Shown: positions 5,288 to 23,162, counted from the stretch's first letter. The stretch is 64,000 bases of DNA from an uncultured Mariniplasma sp. (GCA_964587475.1 CAZPLF010000006.1:1-64000); one strand, 5' to 3'. Notes: generated by a model not told the origin, from the sequence alone. A program made the numbers and translations.

Positions 5288-7993
5288 ATGGAATATAAAC
5301 ACACACTGCTTATGCCTAAAACCGATTTTCAGATGCGTGGTAATTTAGGTGTTAGAGAATTAGAATTTCAACAGAGATGGAAAGATATAGATTTATATCA
5401 AAAAGTCTTGGAACAAAATAAAGATAATGAACCTTTTGTACTACACGATGGACCTCCTTATGCGAATGGAGATATCCATATAGGACATACATTGAATAAA
5501 GTCTTGAAAGACTTTGTTTTGCGTTATCAGACAATGATCGGTAAGTATGTCAGATACATCCCAGGTTGGGATACTCATGGACTACCTATTGAAACAGCAT
5601 TAACCAAAAAAGGTATCAATCGTAAAGAAATGCCTCTTGTAGATTATCGCAAACTCTGTCAGAAATTTGCTGCTGAGCAAGTTGCAAAACAGAAAATCCA
5701 ATTTGAAAGACTCGGAATCTTGGGAGAATGGGATTATCCATATATCACTTATGATAAGGATTTTGAAGCAAGCCAAGTCAAGGTATTTGCTAAAATGGTC
5801 GATCGTGGATTGGTTTATAAAGGACTTAAACCGGTTTTTTGGTCTCCATCTTCAGAATCTGCGCTTGCAGAAGCTGAAATTGAATATCAGGATAAACAGT
5901 CGACATCAGTTTATGTTGCTTTTCCTTCGGTTGAACAAAAAGGATTATTACAAGATGCCTCTTTTATCATATGGACAACAACACCATGGACGCTACCAGC
6001 AAATCTGGCCATCTCAGTTCATCCACGTTTGAATTATAATGTGATTTTAGCAGATGGCAATAAGTATGTAGTTGGTGAAACATTGCTTAATGAATTAAAG
6101 AAAATACTCAATTGGACTGATGTTTCTATCTTGGGAACTCTTAAAGGGAAAGAATTAGAATTAGTTCAATATAAGCATCCGCTTTATGATCGCATTTCAC
6201 CTATTATTGTTGGTGAACATGTCACTGATACTGATGGTACTGGACTCGTTCATACAGCACCTGGACATGGTGAAGATGATTACCGTATCGGCAAAACTTA
6301 TAATCTTGAAATATTATGTCCTGTCGATGATAAAGGATATATGACAGAAGAAGCTGGACCATTTAGTGGTTTATATTACGAAGTAGCAAATGAAGAAATC
6401 GTCAAAGCACTTGAAGAAAAAAAGGTTTTACTCAGAAAAGATCGTTTCACTCACTCCTATCCTCATGATTGGAGAACTAAGAAACCAGTGATATTTAGAG
6501 CAACCCCTCAATGGTTTGCTAGTATTGATAAATTAAAAGATGAACTATTAGACGAAGTCGCTAAAGTTTCTTGGATCCCTGTTTGGGGTGAAGTCAGAAT
6601 TTCTAATATGATTACTGGTCGTGAAGACTGGTGCATTTCAAGACAACGTGCTTGGGGTGTTCCAATTCCTGTCTTTTATGCTGAAAACAATGAACCCATT
6701 TTGGATCAGAAAGTCTTGAGTCATATCAGTGATCTATTTAAAGAATTTGGTTCAGATGTATGGTATGAAAGAGAAGCTAAAGACCTACTACCAAAAGGAT
6801 TTAAACATCCTGGTAGTCCTAATGATTTGTTTAGAAAAGAAACTGACATCATGGATGTTTGGTTTGATTCTGGCACCTCATACTCCATTTTGGAATCTAG
6901 AGGCATCAAGTACCCTGCAGACCTCTATCTAGAGGGATCTGATCAATATCGTGGTTGGTTTAATTCTTCTCTGATCACTGGTGTTGCTGCCTATGGAAAA
7001 GCACCTTATAAAAAGGTCGTATCACATGGATTTGTTCTCGATGGACAAGGCAGAAAAATGAGTAAATCACTAGGTAATACAGTTGATCCTCTCGTGATTA
7101 TGAAACAGCAAGGTGCGGATCTATTAAGATTATGGGTTGCAACAGTTGATTATCAAAGCGACGTTAGAATCAGCAATGATATGATGACACAAATTTCTGA
7201 AGGTTATAGAAAAATCAGAAACACTTTCCGCTTTATGTTAGGTAATCTTGATGGATTCGACCCTGAAACGGATTACGTGGGTTATTCGATGAGAGGTAGA
7301 CTCAACCGTGTTATGACATTAAAATATAATCTTCTAGTATCACAAGTACTAGATGCTTATGAAAATTACGCTTTCGATAAGGTTTACCGCGCTGTTGTAC
7401 CATTTATGACGAATGAGTTATCGGCTTTTTATCTAGATTACACAAAAGACATCTTGTATATTGAAAAAGAAAATGACTTTGAACGTAAATGTGTTCAATC
7501 AACGCTATATGATATCACACTAGGAATGCTGAAATTATTGACACCAATCATTCCTCACACCACTTCTGAAGCTTATCTTTTATTACCATTTAGAGAAAAA
7601 GAAGACATTTATTTAGAGCAAATGCCAAGTGCAGGTAGTAAAATGGATGAATATCTTGTAGAAGCATTTGATATATTCGATTCTGTTCGACAAGTCGTTC
7701 TAAAGAAACTTGAAGATGCAAGAGAATTAAAGATTATTGGTAAATCACTTGCTGCTCAAGTCGATTTGATAGTGACCAAAGAGCAGATGGAAGCCATAAA
7801 GATTTTAGAAATGAAAATCCATCAAGTTTTGATCGTATCCAAAGTAAATATTACTTTAGGTGCTCAACTTGATGTCAAAGTATCACCCGCAACAGGAGCT
7901 ACATGTGATCGCTGTTGGAATATCGTTGATCATGTTCATGAAAATGGACTATGTGATCGATGCAATCATATCCTAGGAGAAGATAAAAAATGA
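5288..7993 (+). CDS. ileS: Isoleucyl-tRNA synthetase
   Basis: HIGH (PPYANGDIHIGH) and KMSKS motifs. Start placed at MEYKHTLLMPKT by alignment to the canonical IleS N-terminus. The ORF-track start at 5213 runs into the T-box. Confidence 0.93.
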   Translation: MEYKHTLLMPKTDFQMRGNLGVRELEFQQRWKDIDLYQKVLEQNKDNEPFVLHDGPPYANGDIHIGHTLNKVLKDFVLRYQTMIGKYVRYIPGWDTHGLPIETALTKKGINRKEMPLVDYRKLCQKFAAEQVAKQKIQFERLGILGEWDYPYITYDKDFEASQVKVFAKMVDRGLVYKGLKPVFWSPSSESALAEAEIEYQDKQSTSVYVAFPSVEQKGLLQDASFIIWTTTPWTLPANLAISVHPRLNYNVILADGNKYVVGETLLNELKKILNWTDVSILGTLKGKELELVQYKHPLYDRISPIIVGEHVTDTDGTGLVHTAPGHGEDDYRIGKTYNLEILCPVDDKGYMTEEAGPFSGLYYEVANEEIVKALEEKKVLLRKDRFTHSYPHDWRTKKPVIFRATPQWFASIDKLKDELLDEVAKVSWIPVWGEVRISNMITGREDWCISRQRAWGVPIPVFYAENNEPILDQKVLSHISDLFKEFGSDVWYEREAKDLLPKGFKHPGSPNDLFRKETDIMDVWFDSGTSYSILESRGIKYPADLYLEGSDQYRGWFNSSLITGVAAYGKAPYKKVVSHGFVLDGQGRKMSKSLGNTVDPLVIMKQQGADLLRLWVATVDYQSDVRISNDMMTQISEGYRKIRNTFRFMLGNLDGFDPETDYVGYSMRGRLNRVMTLKYNLLVSQVLDAYENYAFDKVYRAVVPFMTNELSAFYLDYTKDILYIEKENDFERKCVQSTLYDITLGMLKLLTPIIPHTTSEAYLLLPFREKEDIYLEQMPSAGSKMDEYLVEAFDIFDSVRQVVLKKLEDARELKIIGKSLAAQVDLIVTKEQMEAIKILEMKIHQVLIVSKVNITLGAQLDVKVSPATGATCDRCWNIVDHVHENGLCDRCNHILGEDKK

Positions 7994-8727
7994 ACATATT
8001 AGTTGTCAATGATGATGGATATCAAGCTGAAGGCTTAGGTATCTTGGTTAGAGCACTTACACCTTTTGGAAACGTTTATGTTTCAGCACCTAAAGATCAT
8101 CAAAGTGCTAAAAGTCATGCGATTACCATTAAAAGTCGTATCGAAACTTTTATGACGGAACCAATTTTTGGTTCAGCAGGAACTTTGGTTGTCGATGGAA
8201 CACCGGCAGATGCAACCCGTTTGGGTCTCAAGGTTTTTAATGTTGATTTTGATTTGGTCGTATCCGGAATCAATTATGGACAAAACATTGCATCTGATAT
8301 TTTATATTCAGGAACCGTCGCTGCAGCACTTGAAGCAAAAATCCTTGGTGTTGATGCAATTGCTATCTCAGCACACAATACACATTTGCCCTATTTATAT
8401 GACGAAACAATTAAATTGATGGATGAAATCATAGAAGCAAAACTCTATGAAGGTCCTGGCATTTTAAATGTGAATTTTCCAAGAGATACATTTGCAAGAC
8501 CAAAAGGTGTAAAAATTACACAAATGGGACAAAGATTGCAGCATGCAGAATTTATAAAAAGTGAGCGTCCCGATGTTTATCACATCAAATCCAGCATTAT
8601 TAGTTATCAGGAAAACGTTGATTCAGATGTTGCTGCATTTGATGAAGGTTTTGTATCTATAACACCACTTAATATCAATCGTACTGATTTTCAACGAATT
8701 AATGAGATTCTTAAGACAGAAAAATAG
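7990..8727 (+). CDS. surE: 5'/3'-nucleotidase SurE
   Basis: N-terminal ILVVNDDG signature. 245 aa. Confidence 0.85.
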   Translation: MNILVVNDDGYQAEGLGILVRALTPFGNVYVSAPKDHQSAKSHAITIKSRIETFMTEPIFGSAGTLVVDGTPADATRLGLKVFNVDFDLVVSGINYGQNIASDILYSGTVAAALEAKILGVDAIAISAHNTHLPYLYDETIKLMDEIIEAKLYEGPGILNVNFPRDTFARPKGVKITQMGQRLQHAEFIKSERPDVYHIKSSIISYQENVDSDVAAFDEGFVSITPLNINRTDFQRINEILKTEK

Positions 8728-10417: not shown

Positions 10418-11125
10418 ATGCCAACACCGCATATTGATTTAGAAAATAAAGATTTAATAGCAAAAACAGTTTTAATGCCAGGAGATCCACTGAGAGCCAA
10501 GTATATTGCTGATAACTTCTTAACAAAAGTTGTTCAAATAAACGATGTCAGAAACATGTGGGGGTATACAGGTTATTTTGGTAAAAAGAAAGTTACCGTC
10601 ATGGGTTCTGGAATGGGTATGCCAAGTATTGGTATATACAGTTATGAACTGTTTAAGTTTTATGACGTTGAAAATATAATACGTATTGGATCATGTGGTG
10701 CTTATAGTGATGAATTAAAACTATATGATGTTGTCCTAGTTGAACAAGCATATTCTGAATCAAGTTATGCTAAGACAATGGGTGTTTCATCAAGAAAGAT
10801 TTTACCTGCAAATAAAACCCTTAATAATAAATTGATAAAAGCTGCAGAAAAAATCAATGTTAAATTACATCCTTCAGTTGTTCATTCTTCAGATGTTTTT
10901 TATCGATTGAAGAGTGACGAGTATAAAGAAATACATGAAAAATATGGCGCACAAGCCGTTGAAATGGAGTCATTTGCCTTATTTGCTAATGCTAAAGCAT
11001 TACATAAACGCGCAGCTTGTCTTCTAACCGTATCGGATTCCTTGGTGACACATGAGGCAACCTCATCACAGGAAAGACAAGAAGCATTTACAAAAATGAT
11101 GGAAGTTGCTTTAAATAGTATCTAA
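10418..11125 (+). CDS. deoD: Purine nucleoside phosphorylase, DeoD-type
   Basis: PNP family-1 motifs (MPGDPLRAKYIA, VMGSGMGMPS). 235 aa. Confidence 0.9.
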   Translation: MPTPHIDLENKDLIAKTVLMPGDPLRAKYIADNFLTKVVQINDVRNMWGYTGYFGKKKVTVMGSGMGMPSIGIYSYELFKFYDVENIIRIGSCGAYSDELKLYDVVLVEQAYSESSYAKTMGVSSRKILPANKTLNNKLIKAAEKINVKLHPSVVHSSDVFYRLKSDEYKEIHEKYGAQAVEMESFALFANAKALHKRAACLLTVSDSLVTHEATSSQERQEAFTKMMEVALNSI

Positions 11126-12356: not shown

Positions 12357-12392
12357 ACTTTCATACTCTATTTGGTATGAAGGTTTTTTTAT
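12357..12392 (+). terminator. Rho-independent terminator
   Basis: CUUUCAUAC-loop-GUAUGAAGG hairpin followed by UUUUUUU. Confidence 0.7.
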
Positions 12393-12462
12393 TTATATAT
12401 GTAATTAAATATTCCAATATGAATGAAAATTCCACACATTTTATTAATATTTCATAGAAAGG

Positions 12463-12490
12463 TTGACAATACTGTGAAAAATGATATAAT
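12463..12490 (+). promoter_or_regulatory. Sigma-A type promoter for the BMC locus
   Basis: TTGACA at 12463-12468, a 16-nt spacer, and an extended -10 TGATATAAT at 12482-12490. Confidence 0.6.
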
Positions 12491-12554
12491 TAAGCCAAAT
12501 ATAGACGTGAATATATGAAAGAAAATTACTCAATACAACAAAGAGGTGCGATTA

Positions 12555-13580
12555 GTGATAAAAAATAAAGATATCGCGATACGATCTGGGGTTTCTGTTG
12601 CTACTGTTTCTAGAGTGATGAATCAAAGTGGTTATGTCAAAGATGAAACTAAGGATTTGGTGCTCAAAGCATTCAATGAACTGGTCAATGACGATCAGCT
12701 TTTAGTTCAATCGATAGCAAATGGAAAAACCAATCTCATAGGTGTTGTTGTTCCGGATATTTCAAATCCTTTTTTTGGTGAGGTCATCAAGGGTATATCA
12801 AGCATAGCTGATCAACACTCCGCTAGTTTGTTAGTCTGCAACACAGAAGAACAACTAGATAAGGAAATTAAGTATCTAGAACTGTTTAAGACAAATAACA
12901 TCAAAGGCTTAATTATCACTCCAAAAACAGACCAAGGTGTTTATAATTCAAAATACTTATATCAGCTTGAAGGATTAGGGGTTCCTATTGTCTTATTAGA
13001 TCGCGGTATCAATTTATCTCATTTTAATTCGGTTTTCGTCAACAATACATCAGGTTCTTTTGATGCAATCAATGCTTTGATTAATGAAGGCCACAAAAAT
13101 ATTGCAATAATTTCAGGACCGATGTCATCCAAACCAGGACGTGAAAGATTCTATGGTTATGAAAACGCCTTGAAAAACAATAATCTACCAGTGAATAAAG
13201 ATTATATCTTCTTTGGTGATTTTAAGCTACAAAGTGGTTATGAAATAACCAAAAAAATTCTGAATCTTGAACATAGACCGACTGCTATTTTTGCAGCAAA
13301 CAATATGATGGCTCAAGGATGTATAAAAGCTTTAGTTGAAAACAAATTATCAATTCCAAAAGATATGTCATTTATTAGCTTCGATGATGTTGACATGTTT
13401 GAAATTATGAATCTCAATATTTCAACAGTATCAAGACCAACTGAATTAATGGGTATTGTCGCTGCTGAAATGCTATTTGAACTAGTAGATCATAAACAAG
13501 AGAAGCATACATCCATTAAGGAAGTATTGCTAGAAACCAAACTTGTTTTAAGAGGTTCAGAAAAATTAGTTAAAAAATAA
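12555..13580 (+). CDS. LacI-family transcriptional regulator (HTH plus periplasmic-binding-fold sugar sensor)
   Basis: N-terminal HTH IAIRSGVSVATVSRVMNQ. GTG start at 12555 follows RBS AGAGG. Confidence 0.85.
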   Translation: MIKNKDIAIRSGVSVATVSRVMNQSGYVKDETKDLVLKAFNELVNDDQLLVQSIANGKTNLIGVVVPDISNPFFGEVIKGISSIADQHSASLLVCNTEEQLDKEIKYLELFKTNNIKGLIITPKTDQGVYNSKYLYQLEGLGVPIVLLDRGINLSHFNSVFVNNTSGSFDAINALINEGHKNIAIISGPMSSKPGRERFYGYENALKNNNLPVNKDYIFFGDFKLQSGYEITKKILNLEHRPTAIFAANNMMAQGCIKALVENKLSIPKDMSFISFDDVDMFEIMNLNISTVSRPTELMGIVAAEMLFELVDHKQEKHTSIKEVLLETKLVLRGSEKLVKK

Positions 13581-13592
13581 GGAGTAAACAAT

Positions 13593-14411
13593 ATGGAAAT
13601 TAACGACATCAAACAAATCGTGAGAGATGAACTCGTTACGAGCATTCTAGAATCTCAAGAATTCTTGATTGTGGGTAATTGGAAAATGAATAAAACAAAA
13701 GTTGAAGTCAATGCTTTTTTAGACGATATTGCTAATCATGATTTTGGTGATAAAAATACGGTTGTCATTCTACCTCCAAGTGCTTATCTTTATCTATTTG
13801 AAGATAAACTGAGATTTAGTAAAGTACTATACGGAACTCAAAATTTCTATCCAAAAGAAAACGGTGCATTTACAGGAGAATTTTCAGTAGACATGATGAA
13901 AGATTTTGGATGTAAGTTTGCACTTGCAGGACATTCCGAAAGAAGAGATATATTTATGGAATGTGATGCATTTACTGCTAAAAAAGTGAGAAGTTGTTTA
14001 GAAAATCAAATTAAACCAATTTTATGCATTGGTGAAAATCTAGATCAAAGACAAACAACAGATTATAAACAGTTTTTAATTGATCAACTCAAAAGATCTT
14101 TGGACCGCGTTGAAGGAAAAGATTTAAGTCAAGTCATTATTGCCTACGAACCAATTTGGGCGATCGGTACTGGAGAGACAGCAACACCAGAACAAGTTGA
14201 AGAAATACATATGCATTTAAGAAAGTTTTTAGTTCAACAATATGGATCTGAAATTGGAAAAGAAATTCCTTTATTATATGGTGGAAGTGTTAATGCCAAA
14301 AATGTTAAGGAGCTTGCACTTGCAGAAAGTGTTTCTGGATTCTTAATTGGTGGAGCAAGCTTAAACGCTCAAACATTCATTGAGATAAGCAATATCCTAA
14401 ACGGAAAATAA
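13593..14411 (+). CDS. tpiA: Triosephosphate isomerase paralog with an N-terminal extension of about 21 aa
   Basis: GNWKMN, LAGHSERR and YEPIWAIGTG motifs. There are 27 residues before GNWKMN, against about 6 in housekeeping TpiA. Confidence 0.88.
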   Translation: MEINDIKQIVRDELVTSILESQEFLIVGNWKMNKTKVEVNAFLDDIANHDFGDKNTVVILPPSAYLYLFEDKLRFSKVLYGTQNFYPKENGAFTGEFSVDMMKDFGCKFALAGHSERRDIFMECDAFTAKKVRSCLENQIKPILCIGENLDQRQTTDYKQFLIDQLKRSLDRVEGKDLSQVIIAYEPIWAIGTGETATPEQVEEIHMHLRKFLVQQYGSEIGKEIPLLYGGSVNAKNVKELALAESVSGFLIGGASLNAQTFIEISNILNGK

Positions 14412-14451: not shown

Positions 14452-15315
14452 ATGGAAATCAAAAATATCGATCGACTTGTCGACAAAGTCGCAGCAAATA
14501 TTTTAGATAAACTGGATTTAAAAACTACATATGGCAACATCAATCATAAATCCTGTTTCATTCTAATACCAAATATGGGACTGGGGATGAAAGAATATAT
14601 CGAATACATCATTGAACACTATCAAGGATACGAACTTTATTTAGCATCAAGAGAAAATGGAGCGAATGTTGGAGATTTTAAAAACATCAAAACACTTGAA
14701 TTTGATATGAAAAACCAAAAATTCATTCATCTCTTAGATTCAGTTGAAAATATCATTGTCTTAGGATTGAAAATCAATCAAATGAAATCTATCATTAAAA
14801 CTGATGACGAAGATGATGTGAATCAACTCATCCTAGAGGGACTTCTCGCAAATAAACAAGTCAACGTGATGATGAACGCAAATGAACATATCTTTAGTAA
14901 ACTAAAAAATATTGTTACTGATTTAAGACATATGGGAGTTTATGTAACTAACATCCATCAAGTGAAAGCTTCTTCAATTGTTTCAAATGTAGAAATTGAA
15001 AAGACACATCATTTAAATTCTCAACAGGAACCAGATAGATCATGGGCGATAGCAACAAAGATTGCACCTGAAAAATTATATACAGCATCTTCTAAGTTGG
15101 AAAAAGAATGTCAACTCAATCCTTTTAAAGAATCAAACGATGTACTCATACCATCAAAAAATGAATTGATTACAGAAAGTTATGTGTTAAAACTTAAAGG
15201 CAGAGGAGTTAGAACAATGATTCTTGATAAGAAACATTTAATTACGCCACTTGCAAAAGATAAATTAAGAGAATATAAAATAGATATCAAATATATAGAG
15301 GAGGCAAAATCATGA
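14452..15315 (+). CDS. Hypothetical BMC-locus protein with an amphipathic N-terminus
   Basis: 287 aa with no recognisable motif. N-terminus NIDRLVDKVAANILDKL. Sits between the TIM and aldehyde dehydrogenase genes. Confidence 0.55.
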   Translation: MEIKNIDRLVDKVAANILDKLDLKTTYGNINHKSCFILIPNMGLGMKEYIEYIIEHYQGYELYLASRENGANVGDFKNIKTLEFDMKNQKFIHLLDSVENIIVLGLKINQMKSIIKTDDEDDVNQLILEGLLANKQVNVMMNANEHIFSKLKNIVTDLRHMGVYVTNIHQVKASSIVSNVEIEKTHHLNSQQEPDRSWAIATKIAPEKLYTASSKLEKECQLNPFKESNDVLIPSKNELITESYVLKLKGRGVRTMILDKKHLITPLAKDKLREYKIDIKYIEEAKS

Positions 15316-16736
15316 GCACACAAGATCTAATTGAAAGACTTAGAGCAGAAATGGAAGAAAAATATGGAAATAAGTCAACAAATACAACAACACCTCGTGA
15401 AGCTATCAATGTAGGAAGACTTGGATGTTATGAAAATGTATTGGATGCTATTGCAGCAGCAAAAGCATCACAAGAACAATTGATGGAACTCTCCATGAAA
15501 AAGCGTAACGAAATCATTGCAGCGATGAGAAAAGCAAGTTTAGATAATGCTGAAAAACTAGCAGTGATGGCACATGAAGAAACCGGATTTGGTAGAGTTG
15601 CTGATAAAATTATCAAAAATATTTTAGCAGCAGAAAAAACACCAGGCACTGAAGATCTCAGATCTCGCGCATACACTGGTGATGATGGTATGACTTTAGT
15701 TGAAATGGCACCATTCGGAGTTATTGGCTCTATTACGCCATCTACTAACCCTAGTTCAACAATCATTAATAACAGTATTAGCATGGTTGCAGCAGGTAAT
15801 GGTGTCGTATTCAATCCTCATCCAAGTGCTAAAAAAGTGACGCTTGAGACGATTTCTATCCTCAATCAAGCCATCCATAAAGTGGGTGGACCTAAAGAAC
15901 TTTTGACTGCACCCATTGATCCAACCATGGAAACCAGCAAGGTCATCATGACGCATAAAGACATTAGAATGTTAGCTGTTACTGGTGGTGAAGCAGTTGT
16001 TGAAGTTGCTATGAGAAGCGGTAAGAAAGTCATTGCTGCTGGTCCAGGTAATCCTCCAGTGATTGTTGATGAAACAGCAAATATTAAGAAAGCTGCTAAT
16101 GATATCCTAAGAGGTTCAAGCTTTGATAACAATATCTTGTGTACTGCAGAAAAAGAAGCCTTTATTCTTAATAGCGTATTTAATGAGCTTAGAAATGAAA
16201 TGATTAGACTTGGAGCTTATGAACTAAAGCACCATGAAATAGATATCGTCACAAAAGAAGTGTTCATCAAGAATAATCAAGGTGAAACAGTAGTTAACAG
16301 AAAATATGTTGGCAAAAATGCTTCAGAGATTTTAAAAGCGTGTAAGATTCCAGTGAATCAAGATGTTAAGTTGATTCTTGCTGAAGTTGATGATTCTCAT
16401 CCATTTGTAAATATAGAAATGTTGATGCCAGTATTGGCATTAGTCAGAGTCTATTCGGTTGATGAAGCTATTGAAAAAGCAGTAGCTGCTGAAGCTGGAA
16501 GACATCACTCAGCCATGATGCATTCAGAAAGCGTTACGAACCTTACAAAAGCCGCACGCGCATTAGACACAACAATTTTTGTGAAAAATGCACCATCATT
16601 TGCTGGATTAGGTATCGAAGGAGAAGGTTTCACAACCTTAACCATTGCAACCCCAACAGGTGAAGGTTTAACCTCAGCTAGAAGTTTTACAAGAATTAGA
16701 AGATGTACTTTATCAGGCGGATTTAGAATTATTTAA
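15312..16736 (+). CDS. CoA-acylating aldehyde dehydrogenase (EutE/PduP family)
   Basis: ALDH fold with catalytic ILCTAEKE. The N-terminal peptide DLIERLRAEMEE resembles an encapsulation peptide. Confidence 0.85.
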   Translation: MSTQDLIERLRAEMEEKYGNKSTNTTTPREAINVGRLGCYENVLDAIAAAKASQEQLMELSMKKRNEIIAAMRKASLDNAEKLAVMAHEETGFGRVADKIIKNILAAEKTPGTEDLRSRAYTGDDGMTLVEMAPFGVIGSITPSTNPSSTIINNSISMVAAGNGVVFNPHPSAKKVTLETISILNQAIHKVGGPKELLTAPIDPTMETSKVIMTHKDIRMLAVTGGEAVVEVAMRSGKKVIAAGPGNPPVIVDETANIKKAANDILRGSSFDNNILCTAEKEAFILNSVFNELRNEMIRLGAYELKHHEIDIVTKEVFIKNNQGETVVNRKYVGKNASEILKACKIPVNQDVKLILAEVDDSHPFVNIEMLMPVLALVRVYSVDEAIEKAVAAEAGRHHSAMMHSESVTNLTKAARALDTTIFVKNAPSFAGLGIEGEGFTTLTIATPTGEGLTSARSFTRIRRCTLSGGFRII

Positions 16737-16757
16737 TGAAAAATAGGAGTGGATAAT

Positions 16758-18071
16758 ATGTCTATTGATTATATCCAAAGAATCAAAGAAATAGGGGTTG
16801 TCGGAGCTGGTGGTGCTGGTTTTCCAACACACGTCAAATTAAACAGTAAAGCTAAAATTGTCATTATCAATGGTGCTGAATGCGAGCCTCTGCTTAGAGT
16901 TGATCAACAATTGATGGAATTTTATCCCCAAGATGTTATAGCTGGATTAAAAATTGCAATGGCTCAAACTGGAGCATCTCAAGGTGTGATTGGCTTAAAG
17001 GGAAAGTATAAAACTGCAATCTTGAAACTCGAAGAACTGATTAAAGATGAAAGTTCAATAGAGATCAAGATTATAGGTGACTATTATCCCGCTGGCGATG
17101 AACAACAACTTGTTTATGAAGTCACCAAGAGAGTTGTTCCACTCATGGGTATTCCACTTGATGTGGGTGCTGTTGTCATTAATGTACTAACAGCAATTAA
17201 TATTGCGCGCAATAAGCCAGTTACTGAAAGAGTTGTTACAGTCACTGGAGTAGTGAAGAAACCACAAACGTTAATTGTTCCTGTGGGAACACCATTTCGT
17301 GAATTGATTGAAGCATGTGAAGGCCCTACTGACGAAAAGAACTTTAGTATCGTTGTTGGAGGACCTATGATGGGAAAAGTTGAATCCAATTGGGATACAC
17401 CCGTATCAAAAGTAACTGGTGGAATCATTGTCCTGCCAAATGATCAATATGTGATTGTTAAAAAGACAAGAAAAACCGAAACCGATCTTCAGTTAACAAA
17501 AGCGATTTGTTGCCAGTGTTCATTATGTACCGAGATGTGTCCAAGGAATATCATCGGACTCAATACAGAACCCCATAAGGTTATGAGAGGACTTGCCAAT
17601 GAAGATCCATCGACATTAGGTGCTATCGGTTCAGTCGTGTCTTGTTGTGACTGTGGATTATGCAGCATCTATGCATGTCCAATGGATTTAGATCCAGGTA
17701 AAATAACGAATTTGGTTAAGCAGAGCTTACTTAGAAAAGGTGCTAAAACCGAAAAGGTCATTCCTTATGAAGTTGATCCCTTAAGAGATAGCAAGAAGGT
17801 CCCAACAAAAAGGCTTATTGCAAGACTAGAATTATTAGATTATAATGTTGCAGCTCCCTTGAATTTCAATATATTTGAGACAAAGGCTGTAAAGGTTTTA
17901 TTAAAGCAACATATTGGTGTTGATGCAACACCAATTAAAAAGATTGGTGATACTGTTACGAAAGGTACATTAATTGCAACTTGTTATGATAAATTAGGTG
18001 CTAATGTTCATGCGAGCATCGATGGGCGCATTACAGATATTACTGATAAGTATATAGAAATACATGCATAA
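16758..18071 (+). CDS. PduS/RnfC-family flavin and 2x[4Fe-4S] oxidoreductase
   Basis: GAGGAGFPT nucleotide-binding site. Two Cys clusters: CCQCSLCTEMCP and CCDCGLCSIYACP. Confidence 0.8.
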   Translation: MSIDYIQRIKEIGVVGAGGAGFPTHVKLNSKAKIVIINGAECEPLLRVDQQLMEFYPQDVIAGLKIAMAQTGASQGVIGLKGKYKTAILKLEELIKDESSIEIKIIGDYYPAGDEQQLVYEVTKRVVPLMGIPLDVGAVVINVLTAINIARNKPVTERVVTVTGVVKKPQTLIVPVGTPFRELIEACEGPTDEKNFSIVVGGPMMGKVESNWDTPVSKVTGGIIVLPNDQYVIVKKTRKTETDLQLTKAICCQCSLCTEMCPRNIIGLNTEPHKVMRGLANEDPSTLGAIGSVVSCCDCGLCSIYACPMDLDPGKITNLVKQSLLRKGAKTEKVIPYEVDPLRDSKKVPTKRLIARLELLDYNVAAPLNFNIFETKAVKVLLKQHIGVDATPIKKIGDTVTKGTLIATCYDKLGANVHASIDGRITDITDKYIEIHA

Positions 18072-18085
18072 GGAGGAACTATGTT

Positions 18086-18631
18086 ATGGAAGCATTAGGC
18101 ATGCTCGAACTAAATAGTATTGCACGAGGTATTGAAGCTGGAGATACTGCGATTAAAACTGCTAATGTTAAATTAATTGGTGCTTATGCAGCTTGTCCTG
18201 GTAAATTTGTTGTGATGATAAGAGGTGAGGTTGCTGCTGTAAAAAGTGCCATTCAAGCTGGAGCTATCATCGCAGGTAAATCACTGATTAAAGATATCGT
18301 GATAGCAAATATACATGATCAAGTATTTTCAGCATTAAACTGTACAACAGAAATTGATCCAAAAGGTGCAGTTGGTATTATAGAAACCTATTCACTCGCA
18401 ACAGCTGTCTTAATATCTGATGCTGCCGTTAAGGCGGCAAGCGTTGAGTTATTGGAGATTAGATTAGGACGTGGACTTGGTGGAAAAGCATTTACCGTTT
18501 TGACTGGTGATGTGAGTAGCGTCAAAGCCGCAGTTGAAGCAGCTGTTATTGCCAGTAAAAATGATGGACTTTTAGCCCATACAGCAGTAATTCCAAGAAT
18601 TAGCAAGGAAATGTTACAAACATTGATTTAA
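18086..18631 (+). CDS. Tandem-domain BMC shell protein (BMC-T, PduT-like)
   Basis: Two BMC domains in 181 aa. Cys in AACPGKF sits at the position of the PduT pore 4Fe-4S ligand. Confidence 0.85.
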
Positions 18632-18656: not shown

Positions 18657-18932
18657 ATGGTAGTTGAAGCATTAGGATTAATCGAAACAAGAGGATTTGT
18701 AGGAGCTATTGAAGCTGCAGATGCAATGGTTAAAGCAGCAAATGTTAAACTTGTTGGAAAAGAAAAATCAGGTAGTGGATTAGTCGCAATTATGGTTCGT
18801 GGTGATGTTGGTGCCGTCAAAGCAGCAACTGAAGCTGGTGCTGAAGCAGCACGTAGAGTTGGAGAATTAGTATCAGTTCATGTGATCCCTAGACCACATG
18901 CAGATGTAGAAGACTTGCTTAGTAAGCTTTAA
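18657..18932 (+). CDS. BMC-H hexameric shell protein (PduA/EutM-like) 1
   Basis: [11 protein letters not shown]...[12 protein letters not shown] canonical BMC domain. Confidence 0.95.
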
Positions 18933-18963
18933 AAAAATAGATTAGAATAGGAGAATTAAAATT

Positions 18964-19236
18964 ATGAAAGAAGCATTAGGATTAATTGAAACAAGAGGAT
19001 TTGTTGCAGCAATTGAAGCTGCAGATGCAATGGTCAAAGCAGCAAATGTTAAACTAATTGGCAGAGAAAAATCAGGTAGTGGATTAGTTGCTATGATGGT
19101 TCGTGGAGATGTCGGTGCCGTCAAGGCAGCAACAGAAGCTGGCGCTGAAGCAGCGCGTAGAGTTGGAGAATTAGTATCAGTTCATGTGATCCCAAGACCA
19201 CATGCAGATGTTGAAGAATTACTCAACAATCTATAA
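18964..19236 (+). CDS. BMC-H hexameric shell protein 2
   Basis: Near-identical paralog of the previous gene. Confidence 0.95.
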
Positions 19237-19251
19237 AAAAGGAGAAAGAAA

Positions 19252-19560
19252 ATGAAAGAAGCATTAGGATTAATCGAAACTAGAGGTTTTGTCGCAGCAA
19301 TTGAAGCAGCAGACGCAATGGTTAAGGCTGCAAATGTAAGACTTATCGGAAAAGAAAAGTCAGGTAGTGGATTAGTAGCTATGATGGTTCGTGGTGATGT
19401 CGGTGCCGTCAAGGCAGCAACTGAAGCTGGCGCTGAAGCAGCTCGCAGAGTTGGCGAATTAGTATCAGTACATGTTATTCCAAGTCCACATGCAGATGTA
19501 GAAGAATTATTAAGTGCGCTTAAAGAATCACCTGCAAAAGTCGTCAAAGTAGCAAAATAA
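19252..19560 (+). CDS. BMC-H hexameric shell protein 3
   Basis: Paralog with a short C-terminal tail [13 protein letters not shown]. Confidence 0.95.
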
Positions 19561-19610
19561 TTTTTTGACAATAATTTGTGAATAAATCTATACAGAAAGG
19601 AGAAAACAAA

Positions 19611-19880
19611 ATGGTAGAAGCATTAGGTTTGATCGAAACTAGAGGATTTGTTAGTGCCGTCGAAGCTGCAGACGCAATGGTCAAAGCTGCAAATGTAAGA
19701 CTCATTGGAAAAGAAAAATCAGGCAGTGGGTTAGTCGCAGTTATGGTTCGTGGTGATGTAGGTGCCGTCAAGGCAGCTACTCAAGCTGGAGCTGAAGCAG
19801 CTCGCCGTGTCGGTGAGCTTGTTTCCGTACATGTTATTCCAAGACCACATGCAGATGTTGAAGAATTATTAAAGAAATAA
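19611..19880 (+). CDS. BMC-H hexameric shell protein 4
   Basis: Paralog. RBS AGGAG is 9 nt upstream of ATG 19611. The ORF-track start at 19578 is too long. Confidence 0.93.
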
Positions 19881-19889
19881 AAAGATAAA

Positions 19890-20675
19890 GTGAAAAGAGC
19901 TGAAATTATGGAATTAGATAAATTAATAGAAAGAATTGCTAATGAAATCTATAGCAAAATCGCAAAAGAAGACAATGGTTCATCAAGCATTAAAGTAAAT
20001 GACAATAGTGATCTTGCTAAAATGATTGATCATACATTGTTGAAACCAGAAGCAACAGAAGAAGATATTAAGAAGGTTTGTGAAGAAGCATTACAATATA
20101 AGTTTAAATCTGTTTGTGTAAACACACACTATGTTGCTTTAGTTTCACGTCTTTTGGCTGGATCTAGTGTTTTAACTTGTGGTGTTGTAGGATTCCCATT
20201 AGGTGCGATGACTACAAGAGCTAAAGTAGATGAAACTAGTGATGCGATTAAGAGTGGTGCACATGAAATCGATATGGTTATCAATATTGGTGCACTTAAA
20301 TCTGGCAATTGGAATATTGTCAAAAGTGATATTGAAGGTGTTGTCAATGTAGCAAGAGGTCGGGCGATAGTTAAAGTTATTTTGGAAACATCATTATTAA
20401 CTGATGAAGAAAAAATAAGAGCTTGTACAATTGCTAAAATGGCTGGTGCTGATTTTGTCAAAACCTCAACTGGATTTAATAAAGGTGGAGCAACAATCGA
20501 AGATATTACATTAATGCGTAAAGTTGTAGGACCACATATGGGTGTTAAAGCTTCTGGTGGTGTTCGTGATACTGAAACTGCGAGAGCAATGATTGCTGCT
20601 GGTGCAACAAGAATTGGAACAAGTTCAGGAATAAATATCATTAAGGGCTCTAAGCCTGCGACTGGTACTTATTAA
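19890..20675 (+). CDS. deoC: Deoxyribose-phosphate aldolase with an N-terminal extension of about 38 aa (SPU-type signature enzyme)
   Basis: Aligns along the full length with class-I DERA ([28 protein letters not shown]). Carries an extra N-terminal segment [19 protein letters not shown] plus a linker. The start may instead be ATG 19908. Confidence 0.9.
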
Positions 20676-20697: not shown

Positions 20698-21018
20698 ATG
20701 TATGCTGCGAGAATTATTGGAACTGTTGTGTGTACGCAAAAGGATCCAAGTATGAACAGTTTAAAGATGCAGGTTGTACAACCTGTTAACATCATTACCT
20801 TTAAAGATGAGGGTAAACCTGCAGTAGCAATTGATGCTGTTGGAGCTGGTGATTCAGAAATTGTTTTAGTTGTAGCTGGTAGTTCTGCAAGACTCACTGA
20901 ACTTACACAAAATAAACCTACTGATGCAACGATTATGGCAATTGTTGATTATGTCGATATTGAAGGTAAAAATGTCTTCAGTAAAAATAAAAAACAACCA
21001 GAAGTAGGTTCAAAATAA
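20698..21018 (+). CDS. BMC-P pentameric vertex protein (EutN/PduN/CcmL) 1
   Basis: 106 aa EutN fold. Opens with RIIGTVV. Confidence 0.85.
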   Translation: MYAARIIGTVVCTQKDPSMNSLKMQVVQPVNIITFKDEGKPAVAIDAVGAGDSEIVLVVAGSSARLTELTQNKPTDATIMAIVDYVDIEGKNVFSKNKKQPEVGSK

Positions 21019-21091: not shown

Positions 21092-21553
21092 ATGAAAATT
21101 GCTATTGGTTGTGACCATGGTGGTTATGAATTAAAGGAAAAAGCAAAAAAATATATTACAGAAGAATTAAAAATGCAAGTACAAGATTTTGGCACCTATA
21201 ATAAAAATAGATGTGATTATCCAGACTATGCATTTTTGGTTGCTTCTGCAGTTTCACTTAAAAAATGTGATTTCGGCATCATGATTGATGGCGCTGGTAT
21301 TGGTTCTTCCATGATGGCAAACAAAGTACCTGGCGTACTTGCTGCATGTGCAAATGAAGTCTATACAGCACATAATAGTCGCGAACATAACGGAGCTAAC
21401 GTTTTAACATTGGGTAGCTATGTTATAGGTGAAGGTGTCGCAAAAGAAATCATTAAAACATTCCTAAGTACCAAATTTGAAGGTGAAAGAAATTTACAAC
21501 GTGTAAAGAGTATTTTAGAAATCGAAAAAAGAATTTTAAGCAATAGGGAGTGA
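21092..21553 (+). CDS. rpiB: Ribose-5-phosphate isomerase B / LacAB-family sugar-phosphate isomerase
   Basis: MKIAIGCDHGGYELKE N-terminus. 153 aa. Confidence 0.88.
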   Translation: MKIAIGCDHGGYELKEKAKKYITEELKMQVQDFGTYNKNRCDYPDYAFLVASAVSLKKCDFGIMIDGAGIGSSMMANKVPGVLAACANEVYTAHNSREHNGANVLTLGSYVIGEGVAKEIIKTFLSTKFEGERNLQRVKSILEIEKRILSNRE

Positions 21554-21557
21554 TACT

Positions 21558-21830
21558 ATGCAAATGGCAAAAGTGATCGGTACTGTGACATCAACAGTCA
21601 AGATCAAAGATATTAAAGGTGTATCTTTACTAGTGATTCAACCTGTTAATTCAAAGTATGAATCACTAGGTGCACCTATTGTTGCCGGAGATAATTACGG
21701 TGCAGGTGTTGGTGAATATGTTTTCTATTCGAAAAGTAAAGAAGGAGCAATGAATTTACCGATTCCTACTTCATGTGTTGATGCTGGGATAGTTGGTATC
21801 ATTGATTATGTCTTTAGAAAAGATGAATAA
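21558..21830 (+). CDS. BMC-P vertex protein 2
   Basis: 90 aa EutN fold. Confidence 0.82.
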   Translation: MQMAKVIGTVTSTVKIKDIKGVSLLVIQPVNSKYESLGAPIVAGDNYGAGVGEYVFYSKSKEGAMNLPIPTSCVDAGIVGIIDYVFRKDE

Positions 21831-21851
21831 CATTAAGAATGAGGTGTTATT

Positions 21852-22148
21852 ATGCAACTAGCAATAGTCGTAGGGAATTTGGTTTCAACACATAAAAATG
21901 AATTAATCAAAGGAAAAAAACTTTTGTTTGTCCAACCTATTGATGAAAAATTGATCCCATTTGGTGATGAAATGCTTGCTGTTGATGCTGTAGGAGCAGG
22001 CATAGGTGATGTCGTTGTCATTCTGCATGAAGGTACGTCAGCAAGACAGGTTACCCATGCAGAAAGCAAATACTCACCAATCGAATTGTGTATTGCAGGC
22101 ATTGTCGATTCGATTAAAACTGAAGGTAGCTATAAAACTTTTGATTAG
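21852..22148 (+). CDS. BMC-P vertex protein 3
   Basis: 98 aa EutN fold. Confidence 0.82.
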   Translation: MQLAIVVGNLVSTHKNELIKGKKLLFVQPIDEKLIPFGDEMLAVDAVGAGIGDVVVILHEGTSARQVTHAESKYSPIELCIAGIVDSIKTEGSYKTFD

Positions 22149-22160
22149 TAGGATGATAAA

Positions 22161-23162
22161 ATGAACCTTTTAGATCATATAATTGAACAAGCAAAAAAGA
22201 ATATTAAAACGATTGTTCTTCCCGAAGGGAAGGATCAAAGAACCATTACCGCTGCAAGAAAACTTCAAAGTCAGAATATTGTAAATGTGATTGTTTTAAT
22301 TAATCGTGCTGATATGAATGATGAGACCACAAAGTTGCAAAGTGAAGGTATCAAAGTCATTGTTTTGGAACAATCTGAACAATTGAATTTGTACAGTTCA
22401 CAATTATACGAATTAAGAAAAGAAAAAGGAATGACAAAAGAAGAAGCTGATAAGCTTGTTCTCAATACTGTTTATCATGGCGTGATGATGGTTAAGAACC
22501 AAGATGCTGATGGTATGGTTGCTGGTGCAATTACTGCATCAGGTGATGTCTTAAGACCAGCACTTCAAATTCTTAAAACGGCAGAAAACGTAAAGATTGT
22601 GTCGTCGTTTTTCTTAATGGAAATTCCAAATTCCAAACATGTAATGAATAAAGTGTTTGCTTTTTCGGATTGTGGTCTAGTGGTTAATCCAAACGCAGAT
22701 GAATTAGCGGAAATTGCAATTCAAACTGCAAAATCATTTGCATATCTAACACATGAAGATCCTCGAGTAGCTATGCTTTCCTATTCAACTTATGGAAGTG
22801 CAAAAGGAGAGCTTGTTGATAAGGTTGTTACTGCAACAAAAAATGTACAATCGAAATATCCTAATCTTAAAATTGATGGCGAATTACAACTAGATGCTGC
22901 AATTGTACCTTCTGTTGCTCAATTAAAAGCACCATTAAGTAGAGTTGCAGGATATGCTAATGTATTGATATTTCCCGATTTGCAATCTGGAAATATAGGA
23001 TATAAATTAGTAGAGAGATTGGCTAATGCAGCAGCTTATGGACCAATCACTCAAGGATTGAGCAAACCTGTCAATGATCTTTCAAGAGGATGTTCAGCAG
23101 AAGATATTGTTGCTGTTGTGGCAATTACTGCTCTTCAAACACAATCAGGTATAGTTCATTAA
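22161..23162 (+). CDS. pta: Phosphate acetyltransferase (Pta/EutD type)
   Basis: 333 aa PTA_PTB fold. Motifs IVLPEGKDQR, AFSDCG, DLSRGCSAED. Confidence 0.88.
   Translation: MNLLDHIIEQAKKNIKTIVLPEGKDQRTITAARKLQSQNIVNVIVLINRADMNDETTKLQSEGIKVIVLEQSEQLNLYSSQLYELRKEKGMTKEEADKLVLNTVYHGVMMVKNQDADGMVAGAITASGDVLRPALQILKTAENVKIVSSFFLMEIPNSKHVMNKVFAFSDCGLVVNPNADELAEIAIQTAKSFAYLTHEDPRVAMLSYSTYGSAKGELVDKVVTATKNVQSKYPNLKIDGELQLDAAIVPSVAQLKAPLSRVAGYANVLIFPDLQSGNIGYKLVERLANAAAYGPITQGLSKPVNDLSRGCSAEDIVAVVAITALQTQSGIVH

What the first reader, a model, noticed from the sequence alone, without database searches (positions are those of the whole stretch)
13593..14411. A dedicated triosephosphate isomerase paralog with an N-terminal extension inside a BMC locus
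This TIM is not in a gap-pgk-tpi-pgm-eno glycolytic context. It is the first enzyme gene of the BMC operon and has about 21 extra N-terminal residues (INDIKQIVRDELVTSILESQ) ahead of the conserved GNWKMN start. An encapsulated TIM would convert the glyceraldehyde-3-P released by DeoC into DHAP inside the shell. Triose-phosphate handling of that kind is not part of the classical Pdu, Eut or GRM paradigms.
Basis: partly seen in the sequence, partly recalled or inferred. Interest (0 to 1): 0.65.

Follow-up and report, generated by a model that had tools for sequence, protein, structure and literature searches.

The report
Microcompartment-targeted triosephosphate isomerase, already described

Summary
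ORF 13593-14411 (+) encodes a 272-aa triosephosphate isomerase with an intact catalytic set. It has 27 residues before the GNWKMN motif, against 7-10 in ordinary TIMs. It follows a LacI regulator and opens a cluster of PduM-like protein, acylating aldehyde dehydrogenase, PduS, BMC-T, four BMC-H, DeoC, three BMC-P, RpiB and Pta.

About 100 protein clusters share the extension. All 22 reference-genome loci that carry it (Izemoplasmatales and Mariniplasma-like) show the same synteny. None of 58 ordinary TIM loci has shell genes. On the catalytic core alone, the extended TIMs form a clade (100/100 bootstrap) apart from ordinary Mollicutes, Bacilli and Clostridia TIMs.

AlphaFold predicts helix 3-21. 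Residues 1-11 match the EutC and EutE encapsulation peptides of E. coli.

This is the SPU (sugar phosphate utilising) microcompartment:
- It was named in 2014 partly for its TIM.
- An N-terminal encapsulation peptide on SPU4 TPI was predicted in 2024.
- A microcompartment was postulated for Izimaplasma HR2 in 2016.

I could not test whether the same genome has a second, glycolytic tpiA. Verdict: real, correctly read, a new member of a known kind, low interest.

The parts
12463..12490 (+). Promoter-like site (TTGACA, 16 nt, TG-TATAAT; 12 of 12) upstream of the regulator. It is the likely operon promoter. A terminator-like hairpin of the preceding gene lies at 12357-12384.
   Evidence: This is a consensus match only.
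12546..13580 (+). LacI-family transcription regulator. Its stop lies 12 nt before the TIM start.
   Evidence: Pfam LacI plus Peripla_BP_1/3. It is conserved directly upstream of the TIM in the related loci whose sequence reaches that far upstream (19 of the 22 reference-species loci), at 72-84% identity.
13579..13584 (+). Shine-Dalgarno AAGGAG, 8 nt upstream of the TIM ATG.
   Evidence: Sequence read.
13593..13664 (+). N-terminal extension of the TIM (residues 1-24, MEINDIKQIVRDELVTSILESQEF). Residues 1-11 form a Eut-type encapsulation-peptide motif. Residues 12-21 continue the helix straight into strand beta-1.
   Evidence: Helix 3-21 with pLDDT 84-87. Absent from ordinary TIMs. A profile of the extension hits E. 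coli EutE and EutC residues 1-11. Conservation is shown.
13665..14411 (+). Catalytic TIM barrel (residues 25-272) and stop codon. N29, K31, H114, E186, the loop-6 AIGTG, YGGS 229-232 and GGASL 253-257 are conserved.
   Evidence: TM-score 0.93-0.94 to solved TIM structures.
14452..15315 (+). 287-aa PduM / TIGR02536-like microcompartment protein with an amphipathic N-terminal helix (MEIKNIDRLVDKVAANILDKL).
   Evidence: Hydrophobic moment 0.64. Detected in 20 of the 22 reference-species loci, always between TIM and AldDH.
15312..16736 (+). CoA-acylating aldehyde dehydrogenase (EutE/PduP type) with an N-terminal helix (MSTQDLIERLRAEMEEKYG).
   Evidence: PF00171. NF011927 scores 636 bits.
16749..18071 (+). 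PduS/RnfC-like flavin and Fe-S oxidoreductase.
18086..18631 (+). Tandem-domain shell protein (BMC-T, PduT-like).
   Evidence: Two PF00936 domains.
18657..19880 (+). Four hexamer shell genes (BMC-H) at 18657-18932, 18964-19236, 19252-19560 and 19578/19611-19880.
   Evidence: PF00936 annotation on L001, which is 99.9% identical to the window here.
19890..20675 (+). Deoxyribose-5-phosphate aldolase (DeoC/DERA), the signature enzyme. It has an N-terminal extension of about 35 residues that holds an amphipathic helix ([21 protein letters not shown]).
   Evidence: TIGR00126 scores 288 bits over residues 42-251. Hydrophobic moment 0.61.
20698..21018 (+). Pentamer shell protein (BMC-P) 1.
   Evidence: PF03319.
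21092..21553 (+). Ribose-5-phosphate isomerase B, 153 aa, with no N-terminal extension.
   Evidence: TIGR01120 scores 152.5 bits against a cut-off of 138.65. This is the longest possible ORF.
21558..22148 (+). Pentamer shell proteins 2 and 3 (21558-21830 and 21852-22148).
   Evidence: PF03319 annotation on L001.
22161..23162 (+). Phosphotransacetylase of the Pta/EutD type (PF01515), the last gene of the conserved module.
   Evidence: It ends the conserved block, also in strain WC30 where the neighbourhood differs.

Best explanation
The gene encodes a catalytically competent triosephosphate isomerase that belongs to the cargo of a sugar-phosphate-utilising (SPU, most like subtype SPU4) bacterial microcompartment. 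The host is an uncultured Mariniplasma/Izemoplasmatales-like bacterium.

Shown here:
- The enzyme family and an intact active site.
- A conserved N-terminal helix of about 20 residues, found only in TIMs that sit in such loci.
- Strict synteny at the head of the operon.
- A separate evolutionary lineage from ordinary TIMs.
- Sequence resemblance of residues 1-11 to the EutC and EutE encapsulation peptides.

Inferred:
- The helix recruits the TIM dimer into the shell lumen, together with DeoC, the aldehyde dehydrogenase and the PduM-like protein, which also carry N-terminal helices.
- Deoxyribose 5-phosphate, made from deoxynucleosides by nearby phosphorylases, enters the shell.
- DeoC splits it into acetaldehyde and glyceraldehyde 3-phosphate (GAP).
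- The dehydrogenase and Pta convert acetaldehyde to acetyl-CoA and then acetyl phosphate.
- The TIM equilibrates GAP to DHAP. That equilibrium lies about 20:1 towards DHAP (established biochemistry).
- A low luminal GAP level would pull the reversible aldolase reaction forward where acetaldehyde is deliberately retained. It would also keep a second reactive aldehyde away from the promiscuous dehydrogenase.
- DHAP would leave the shell for glycolysis.
For: Enzyme identity and active site:
- PF00121 at E 1.8e-83, and TIGR00419 above its cut-off.
- Invariant N29, K31, H114, E186, YGGS and GGASL across 76 sequences.
- The model has mean pLDDT 91.9 and TM-score 0.93-0.94 to solved TIMs. The first ~24 residues are unmatched.

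The extension is specific to microcompartment-linked TIMs:
- About 100 clusters at 51-98% identity (P0001-P0103, apart from four shorter or truncated entries) have 27-44 residues before [GA]NWKM. Identity then falls from 51% to at most 48% in TIMs with 7-10 residues there.
- All 22 reference-species loci with the extended TIM have the aldehyde dehydrogenase directly downstream, in 20 of them after the PduM-like gene. The LacI regulator, PduS, shell genes, DeoC, RpiB and Pta follow in the same order as far as each contig reaches. None of 58 ordinary TIM loci has shell genes.
- The module keeps its boundaries in a different chromosomal neighbourhood in strain WC30.
- A Clostridial-type member shows the same TIM, 238-aa ORF, AldDH, PduS and BMC order.
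- The extended TIMs are monophyletic on 245 core columns (100/100), apart from ordinary Mollicutes, Bacilli and Clostridia TIMs.

Resemblance to encapsulation peptides:
- A profile of the extension ranks E. coli EutE and EutC residues 1-11 directly after the window's own TIM among 1,422 ORFs (10.6 and 10.2 bits; the next hit scores 3.8).
- More distant TIM clusters carry the same D-I-x-x-[IL]-[IV]-R start, followed by variable linkers.
- An Elusimicrobia TIM-RpiB-DeoC cluster without shell genes has no extensions. This serves as a natural control.

Literature:
- TIM helped define SPU loci (PMC4207490).
- TPI is prominent in SPU1 and SPU4, an N-terminal encapsulation peptide is predicted on SPU4 TPI, and a GAP-to-DHAP step is drawn inside the shell (PMC11585597).
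Against: - No experiment shows encapsulation of any SPU TPI.
- Over 18 residues the helical hydrophobic moment is only 0.27, below the window background of 0.38 +/- 0.11. Only the first 11 residues are clearly amphipathic (0.67).
- The helix joins strand beta-1 through about 3 residues rather than the flexible linker typical of encapsulation peptides. Its high pLDDT and the invariant E13 and Q22 suggest the second half packs on the barrel.
- The match to EutC and EutE is short, with E about 0.01-0.02 in a small database.
- The locus differs from the published SPU1/4/7 description: Pta is PF01515 rather than PduL, and RpiB has no extension.
- A second, cytosolic TIM, which the DHAP-export model needs, was not demonstrated.
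Confidence: 0.7

Rival explanations
1. The TIM is co-regulated with the microcompartment but works in the cytosol, or on the outer face of the shell. It would feed GAP that leaves the shell into glycolysis or gluconeogenesis. Under this reading the N-terminal helix is a structural or oligomerisation element of this TIM lineage and not a targeting signal.
For: - The helix is rigidly attached, with a linker of about 3 residues, pLDDT 84-87, and invariant E13 and Q22.
- Whole-helix amphipathicity is weak, at 0.27.
- RpiB and Pta of the same operon carry no extension at all, so a place in the operon does not imply a targeting peptide.
Against: - The extension is found only in shell-linked TIMs and is missing from the TIM of a shell-less TIM-RpiB-DeoC cluster.
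- Its first 11 residues match the EutC and EutE encapsulation peptides specifically.
- Distant TIM clusters keep that motif but vary the rest, with linkers. That pattern is expected of a targeting peptide.
Confidence: 0.17
2. It is the organism's only, housekeeping TIM, which happens to be encoded beside the microcompartment genes. The extension would then be a lineage trait of Izemoplasmatales-type TIMs.
For: No second TIM lies in the 64-kb window or within 10 kb of the gene in 28 related loci. The rest of the genome could not be searched.
Against: - The extended TIMs of Izemoplasmatales-type bacteria group with those of Clostridia (100/100) and not with ordinary Mollicutes or Bacilli TIMs.
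- Only 22 reference species carry it, always inside the microcompartment module.
- The module sits in different neighbourhoods in different genomes.
- The literature reports that the microcompartment genes are absent from other Izemoplasma genomes (10.1101/528695).
Confidence: 0.05
3. The TIM-family and RpiB-family isomerases act as a pair on another sugar phosphate, as the TIM-like EryH and RpiB-like EryI do on tetrulose and erythrulose phosphates in Brucella erythritol catabolism (recalled from memory). The TIM's substrate would then not be GAP.
For: - TIM, RpiB and DeoC travel together both with and without shell genes.
- The role of RPI in SPU chemistry is acknowledged as unexplained (PMC11585597).
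Against: - The protein passes the TIM equivalog cut-off, and RpiB passes the rpiB equivalog cut-off, whereas the erythrulose-4-phosphate isomerase model scores 92 against a cut-off of 240.
- All catalytic and phosphate-gripper motifs of true TIMs are invariant.
- GAP is the obligatory product of the adjacent DeoC.
Confidence: 0.05

Closest known systems
TPI of SPU (sugar phosphate utilising) bacterial microcompartments, especially subtype SPU4 (Axen 2014, PMC4207490; Sutter 2021, PMC8217296; Dwyer, Sutter and Kerfeld 2024, PMC11585597)
   Same: - DeoC/DERA with an N-terminal extension.
- Acylating AldDH with an N-terminal helix.
- PduS, RpiB, a triplet of BMC-P and no double-layer BMC-T.
- A PF00121 TPI with a predicted N-terminal encapsulation peptide.
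- The proposed GAP-to-DHAP step in the lumen.
- A Firmicutes-type host range.
   Different: - The phosphotransacetylase is PF01515 (Pta/EutD type), not the PduL (PF06130) reported for nearly all SPU1/4/7 loci.
- RpiB lacks the encapsulation peptide and ~75-residue linker described for SPU RPIs.
- The subtype could not be assigned formally, because the BMC Caller profiles and the paper's supplementary tables were not available.
Microcompartment postulated in Candidatus Izimaplasma sp. HR2 (Skennerton 2016, cited in 10.1101/528695 and PMC8289736)
   Same: HR2 carries an orthologous locus (L021) with the same gene order. Its TIM is 66-67% identical to the window's and has the same extension.
   Different: The window comes from a different, uncultured Mariniplasma-like organism (84-86% identity to the closest MAGs). 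I could not read the 2016 paper to see whether it discussed the TIM.
EutC and EutE N-terminal encapsulation peptides of the ethanolamine microcompartment
   Same: The start motif M-[DN]-x-x-[DQ]-I-E-[EQ]-[IV]-V-[RK] is shared at residues 1-11, with an 11-residue hydrophobic moment of 0.61-0.79.
   Different: In EutC and EutE the helix is followed by an Ala/Pro/Ser-rich flexible linker. Here the helix runs on for 10 more conserved residues into strand beta-1. Targeting by EutC 1-19 is experimentally shown (recalled from memory), whereas none is shown here.
Ordinary glycolytic TpiA (gap-pgk-tpi-gpm-eno operons)
   Same: Fold, catalytic residues and predicted reaction.
   Different: At most 48% identity, no N-terminal helix, a different genomic context and a separate clade.

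Membership tests
Triosephosphate isomerase (EC 5.3.1.1, PF00121 / TIGR00419) | Profile match above the curated cut-off. | tested here: met
   PF00121 scores 280 bits against a cut-off of 20.1. TIGR00419 scores 173.3 against 130.6.
Triosephosphate isomerase (EC 5.3.1.1, PF00121 / TIGR00419) | Catalytic Asn/Lys, His and Glu, plus the phosphate-gripper loops (AIGTG, YGGS, GGAS). | tested here: met
   N29, K31, H114, E186, G192-T193-G194, Y229-G231-S232 and G253-G254-A255 are invariant in 76 sequences.
Triosephosphate isomerase (EC 5.3.1.1, PF00121 / TIGR00419) | (beta/alpha)8 barrel fold. | tested here: met
   The AlphaFold model has pLDDT 91.9. Foldseek gives TM-score 0.93-0.94 to solved TIMs.
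Triosephosphate isomerase (EC 5.3.1.1, PF00121 / TIGR00419) | GAP/DHAP isomerase activity. | not testable with these tools
   This needs an enzyme assay.
SPU bacterial microcompartment locus | Shell genes: BMC-H, BMC-T and a triplet of BMC-P. | tested here: met
   PF00936 on five genes (one of them tandem) and PF03319 on three genes.
SPU bacterial microcompartment locus | DeoC-type aldolase (PF01791) as signature enzyme, with an N-terminal extension. | tested here: met
   TIGR00126 scores 288 bits over residues 42-251. The preceding ~35 residues hold an amphipathic helix with hydrophobic moment 0.61.
SPU bacterial microcompartment locus | Acylating aldehyde dehydrogenase (PF00171). | tested here: met
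SPU bacterial microcompartment locus | RpiB-type isomerase (PF02502). | tested here: met
   It lacks the encapsulation peptide described for SPU RPIs.
SPU subtype SPU4 | No double-layer BMC-T; PduS present; TPI with an N-terminal encapsulation peptide; PduL-type phosphotransacetylase; subtype-specific shell-protein clades. | tested here: inconclusive
   PduS is present and the TPI carries an N-terminal extension. The only BMC-T is a 181-aa tandem-domain protein, which looks single-layer, but the type was judged from size alone. The PduL criterion is not met, because Pta is PF01515. Shell clades could not be assigned without the BMC Caller profiles.
Encapsulation peptide | A terminal extension that is absent from homologs not associated with microcompartments. 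| tested here: met
Encapsulation peptide | An amphipathic alpha-helix of about 15-20 residues. | tested here: inconclusive
   A helix at 3-21 is predicted. The hydrophobic moment is high only for residues 2-12 (0.67) and is 0.27 over 18 residues.
Encapsulation peptide | A poorly conserved flexible linker to the enzyme domain. | tested here: not met
   Only about 3 residues separate the helix from strand beta-1, and residues 12-23 are highly conserved. Linkers are present in the more distant clusters P0121, P0123 and P0125.
Encapsulation peptide | Necessary and sufficient for targeting cargo to the shell. | not testable with these tools
   This needs fusion and deletion experiments.

The most novel reading that the evidence does not exclude
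In this Izemoplasmatales/Clostridia branch of SPU microcompartments, the cargo-organising role has moved between enzymes. RpiB, which elsewhere carries the encapsulation peptide and binds DERA, has none here. The TIM instead carries a rigid, linker-less helix whose tip is a Eut-type targeting motif. The TIM dimer would then be a bivalent structural hub that nucleates the core, and would also remove GAP. If it proved to be the only TIM of the cell, part of central triose-phosphate metabolism would pass through an organelle.
Probability: 0.15. Interest if true: 0.45.

Novelty: new member of a known kind. Interest (0 to 1): 0.2.

Why it matters
It adds a well-delimited example to a known but experimentally untested prediction, namely that SPU microcompartments package a triosephosphate isomerase.

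What is useful here:
- The TIM lineage is sharply defined: about 100 clusters and 22 reference species, always at the head of the operon.
- The extension contains an 11-residue Eut-type motif, which could be tested directly as a targeting tag.
- Cultured carriers with complete genomes exist (strains WC30 and zrk6), and their relatives are known DNA degraders in marine sediments.

It does not change the current picture of microcompartment biology.

Tried and rejected
Search for a second tpiA in the same genome (not resolved):
- No tool scans a whole genome.
- The window, 28 related loci and the stretches just beyond the window ends hold no second TIM and no glycolytic operon.
- The single genome-contig scan used query-specific peptides, so it returned only extended TIMs of relatives and ordinary TIMs of unrelated phyla.
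- I chose not to spend further large protein searches on an ordinary Mollicutes TIM. The chance that the WC30 or zrk6 copy would fall among the 120 listed hits was small.

Literature that could not be used:
- Skennerton 2016 is not held.
- The supplementary tables of Dwyer 2024 are not held.
- The supplements of Wasmund 2021 do not list TIM genes.
- Protein P0092 (Clostridium sp. WILCCON 0185) is not on record for context look-up.

Analyses that did not support a simple reading:
- Whole-helix amphipathicity does not support a textbook encapsulation peptide (0.27). I kept the claim only for residues 1-11.
- Other helix periodicities were checked, with no clear gain.
- A profile of the PduM-like protein found no solved structure.

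Readings considered and rejected:
- An internal start giving an ordinary-length TIM. There is no SD, and the N-terminus is conserved at the protein level.
- A fusion or annotation artefact. The same protein is called on independent assemblies.

Full report
**Observation**

The ORF at 13593-14411 on the + strand is real. It starts at an ATG 8 nt downstream of a consensus AAGGAG (13579-13584) and ends at TAA 14409-14411. It encodes 272 residues.
- Pfam TIM (PF00121) matches residues 25-267 at E 1.8e-83.
- The TIM equivalog TIGR00419 is passed, 173 bits against a cut-off of 130.6.
- In an alignment of 76 relatives, the catalytic Asn29, Lys31, His114 and Glu186, the loop-6 AIGTG, YGGS 229-232 and GGASL 253-257 are invariant.
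- An AlphaFold model (mean pLDDT 91.9) superposes on solved TIMs with TM-score 0.93-0.94. About 246 of the 272 residues align, so the N-terminus has no counterpart in any solved TIM.

27 residues precede GNWKMN, against 7-10 in ordinary TIMs.

**The extension is a constrained feature, not an annotation accident**

A search of the 5.8-billion-protein collection gave about 100 clusters (P0001-P0103, apart from four shorter or truncated entries).
- They are 51-98% identical to the query, mostly 270-288 aa long, and cover 94-100% of it.
- All have 27-44 residues before [GA]NWKM.
- Identity then falls from 51% to at most 48%, in proteins of about 250 aa without the extension.

Within the 83 sequences that share the window's register:
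- positions 6, 9, 10, 14, 15, 18 and 19 are hydrophobic in 98-100%;
- position 11 is always Arg or Lys;
- Glu13 is invariant and Gln22 is present in 93%.

AlphaFold predicts one helix, residues 3-21 (pLDDT 84-87). It runs into strand beta-1 (25-29) after about three residues.

**Context**

The gene follows a LacI-family regulator by 12 nt. It opens a co-directional block:
- a PduM/TIGR02536-like protein;
- a CoA-acylating aldehyde dehydrogenase;
- a PduS/RnfC-like oxidoreductase;
- a tandem BMC-T and four BMC-H;
- DeoC;
- BMC-P, RpiB, and two more BMC-P;
- a PF01515 phosphotransacetylase.

A perfect sigma-70-like promoter lies upstream of the regulator, just after a terminator-like hairpin (consensus match only). 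Nucleoside-catabolic genes lie nearby: SurE, purine and pyrimidine nucleoside phosphorylases, and a PF01663 enzyme.

**Comparative evidence**

A scan of one genome per species returned 22 species with the extended TIM. All are Izemoplasmatales, 'Mycoplasmatota' or Mariniplasma-like. They include Candidatus Izimaplasma HR2 and two complete genomes, WC30 and zrk6. The closest relatives are uncultured Mariniplasma MAGs at 84-86% identity.
- In all 22 loci the aldehyde dehydrogenase lies directly downstream of the TIM, in 20 of them after the PduM-like gene. The LacI regulator, PduS, the shell genes, DeoC, RpiB and Pta follow in the same order wherever the contig reaches.
- None of the 58 ordinary TIM loci returned by the same scan has shell genes.
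- In WC30 the module has the same boundaries, LacI to Pta, but different neighbours.
- A Clostridial-type member shows TIM, a 238-aa ORF, AldDH, PduS and BMC.
- A neighbour-joining tree on 245 core columns, with the extension excluded, puts the Izemoplasma-type and Clostridial-type extended TIMs in one clade with 100/100 bootstrap. That clade is separate from ordinary TIMs of Mollicutes, Bacilli and Clostridia.
- An Elusimicrobia MAG has a TIM-RpiB-DeoC cluster without shell genes, and neither its TIM nor its DeoC has an extension. This is a natural control.

A dedicated, horizontally mobile, microcompartment-linked TIM lineage would show this pattern. A housekeeping gene would not.

**Is the extension an encapsulation peptide?**

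For:
- A profile built from the 83 extensions was searched against 1,422 ORFs: the E. coli eut locus, 58 unrelated loci and the window. The window's own TIM ranks first. Next come the first 11 residues of E. coli EutE (MNQQDIEQVVK, 10.6 bits) and EutC (MDQKQIEEIVR, 10.2 bits). The next best hit scores 3.8 bits.
- EutC 1-19 is an experimentally validated targeting peptide (recalled from memory).
- More distant 50%-identity clusters of TIM (P0121, P0123, P0125, P0148, P0171) begin with the same D-[IL]-x-x-[IL]-[IV]-R motif. There it is followed by variable Gly/Ser/Pro-rich linkers, the classical arrangement.
- DeoC, the aldehyde dehydrogenase and the PduM-like protein of this locus also have N-terminal helices.

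Against:
- The 18-residue hydrophobic moment is 0.27, below the window background of 0.38 +/- 0.11. Only residues 2-12 are clearly amphipathic (0.67).
- There is no flexible linker.
- The second half of the helix is conserved in a way that suggests it packs on the barrel.

I read it as a Eut-type targeting tip on a rigid stalk. Targeting itself is inferred.

**Mechanism (inferred)**

This agrees with the published scheme.
1. Deoxyribose 5-phosphate from nucleoside breakdown enters the shell.
2. DeoC yields acetaldehyde and GAP.
3. The dehydrogenase and Pta take acetaldehyde to acetyl-CoA and then acetyl phosphate.
4. PduS, with the PduT-like BMC-T, may handle reducing equivalents.
5. The TIM converts GAP to DHAP.

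The TIM equilibrium favours DHAP about 20:1, and the DeoC reaction is reversible (established biochemistry). A luminal TIM would therefore lower GAP where acetaldehyde is retained, pull the cleavage forward, and keep a second aldehyde away from the dehydrogenase. DHAP would then leave for glycolysis, which needs a cytosolic TIM.

**Comparison with what is known**

- Axen et al. [quoted passage not shown]
- Sutter et al. (2021) catalogued more than 280 SPU loci in seven subtypes (PMC8217296).
- Dwyer, Sutter and Kerfeld (2024) report that TPI is prominent in SPU1 and SPU4, and they predict an N-terminal encapsulation peptide on SPU4 TPI. They draw GAP-to-DHAP conversion inside the shell. They also note that SPU4 is the one subtype that co-occurs with other microcompartment types; I read those types (EUT2, GRM1, BUF3) as Firmicutes types, from memory (PMC11585597).
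- A microcompartment for aldehydes from deoxyribose was postulated for Izimaplasma HR2 in 2016, as cited in 10.1101/528695. HR2 carries the orthologous locus (L021).
- TPI also appears in SPU-type loci of Myxococcota and Asgard archaea (PMC12747264).

The locus differs from the published generalisations in two ways. Pta is the PF01515 (EutD) type and not PduL, and RpiB is only 153 aa with no room for the encapsulation peptide described for SPU RPIs. I could not assign the subtype formally.

**What remains open**

- There is no second TIM in the window, in the flanks of 28 related loci, or in the up to ~5 kb of sequence that other assemblies hold beyond each window end.
- The organism is known only from metagenome contigs.
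- The second clause of that test, that the extension is shared by the housekeeping TIMs of relatives, is refuted.

**Verdict**

It is a new member of a known kind, not a new kind of triose-phosphate handling. Interest is low (0.2). The most novel reading still open is that the TIM dimer acts as the cargo-organising hub in a branch where RpiB has lost its targeting peptide, or even that it is the sole TIM. I give that reading about 0.15 probability.

Noticed in passing
window 14452-15315 (+): A 287-aa protein lies directly downstream of the TIM. It has a strongly amphipathic N-terminal helix (MEIKNIDRLVDKVAANILDKL, hydrophobic moment 0.64). Its C-terminal part matches TIGR02536 (a eut-operon hypothetical) and, weakly, PduM. 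No solved structure is related. The window's copy and that of one Mariniplasma MAG carry an insertion of up to about 58 residues relative to the other homologs.
   Followed up: partly
window 21092-21553 (+): The RpiB of this locus is 153 aa at its longest possible ORF. It therefore has no N-terminal encapsulation peptide or long linker, unlike the SPU RPIs described by Dwyer et al. 2024. The called RpiB genes of strain WC30 and of a Bacilli MAG are equally short (153 and 151 aa).
   Followed up: partly
window 22161-23162 (+): The phosphotransacetylase that ends the conserved module is the Pta/EutD type (PF01515). Nearly all SPU1/4/7 loci are reported to have the PduL type (PF06130). It is conserved in that position in the related loci that reach that far.
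   Followed up: partly
L006 9348-9935: In a Bacilli MAG (JAFGUE010000055.1), the gene upstream of the TIM is a 195-aa protein annotated with both a LacI HTH domain and a BMC shell domain. It stands in place of the full-length LacI regulator and may be a regulator-shell fusion.
   Followed up: no
L073 9989-11896 (and 18937-20115): An Elusimicrobia MAG has an ordinary TIM (253 aa), RpiB and DeoC in a row, with phosphopentomutase nearby. There are no shell genes within 10 kb and no N-terminal extensions. The enzyme trio is therefore also linked outside microcompartments.
   Followed up: partly
proteins P0121, P0123, P0125, P0148, P0171: Other TIM clusters, 41-48% identical to the window's where identity was reported, start with a similar D-[IL]-x-x-[IL]-[IV]-R helix followed by variable linkers. 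They are probably the TPIs of other microcompartment subtypes. Their genomic contexts could not be looked up.
   Followed up: no
window 18086-18631 (+) with 16749-18071 (+): The tandem BMC-T has the sequence ACPGKF at the position where PduT binds its Fe-S cluster (recalled from memory). It sits next to the PduS-like flavin/Fe-S protein, which suggests an electron route across the shell.
   Followed up: no
window 12357-12490 (+): A terminator-like hairpin (12357-12384) is followed by a perfect 12-of-12 sigma-70 promoter match with an extended -10 TG (12463-12490), upstream of the LacI regulator. Regulator and microcompartment genes may form one transcript. Both are consensus matches only.
   Followed up: no
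window 7990-8727, 10418-11125, 32796-34091, 34102-35220: Nucleotide and nucleoside catabolism genes surround the locus: SurE nucleotidase, purine nucleoside phosphorylase, pyrimidine nucleoside phosphorylase, and a PF01663 phosphodiesterase-family enzyme that may or may not be the phosphopentomutase. This fits a supply of deoxyribose 5-phosphate.
   Followed up: partly
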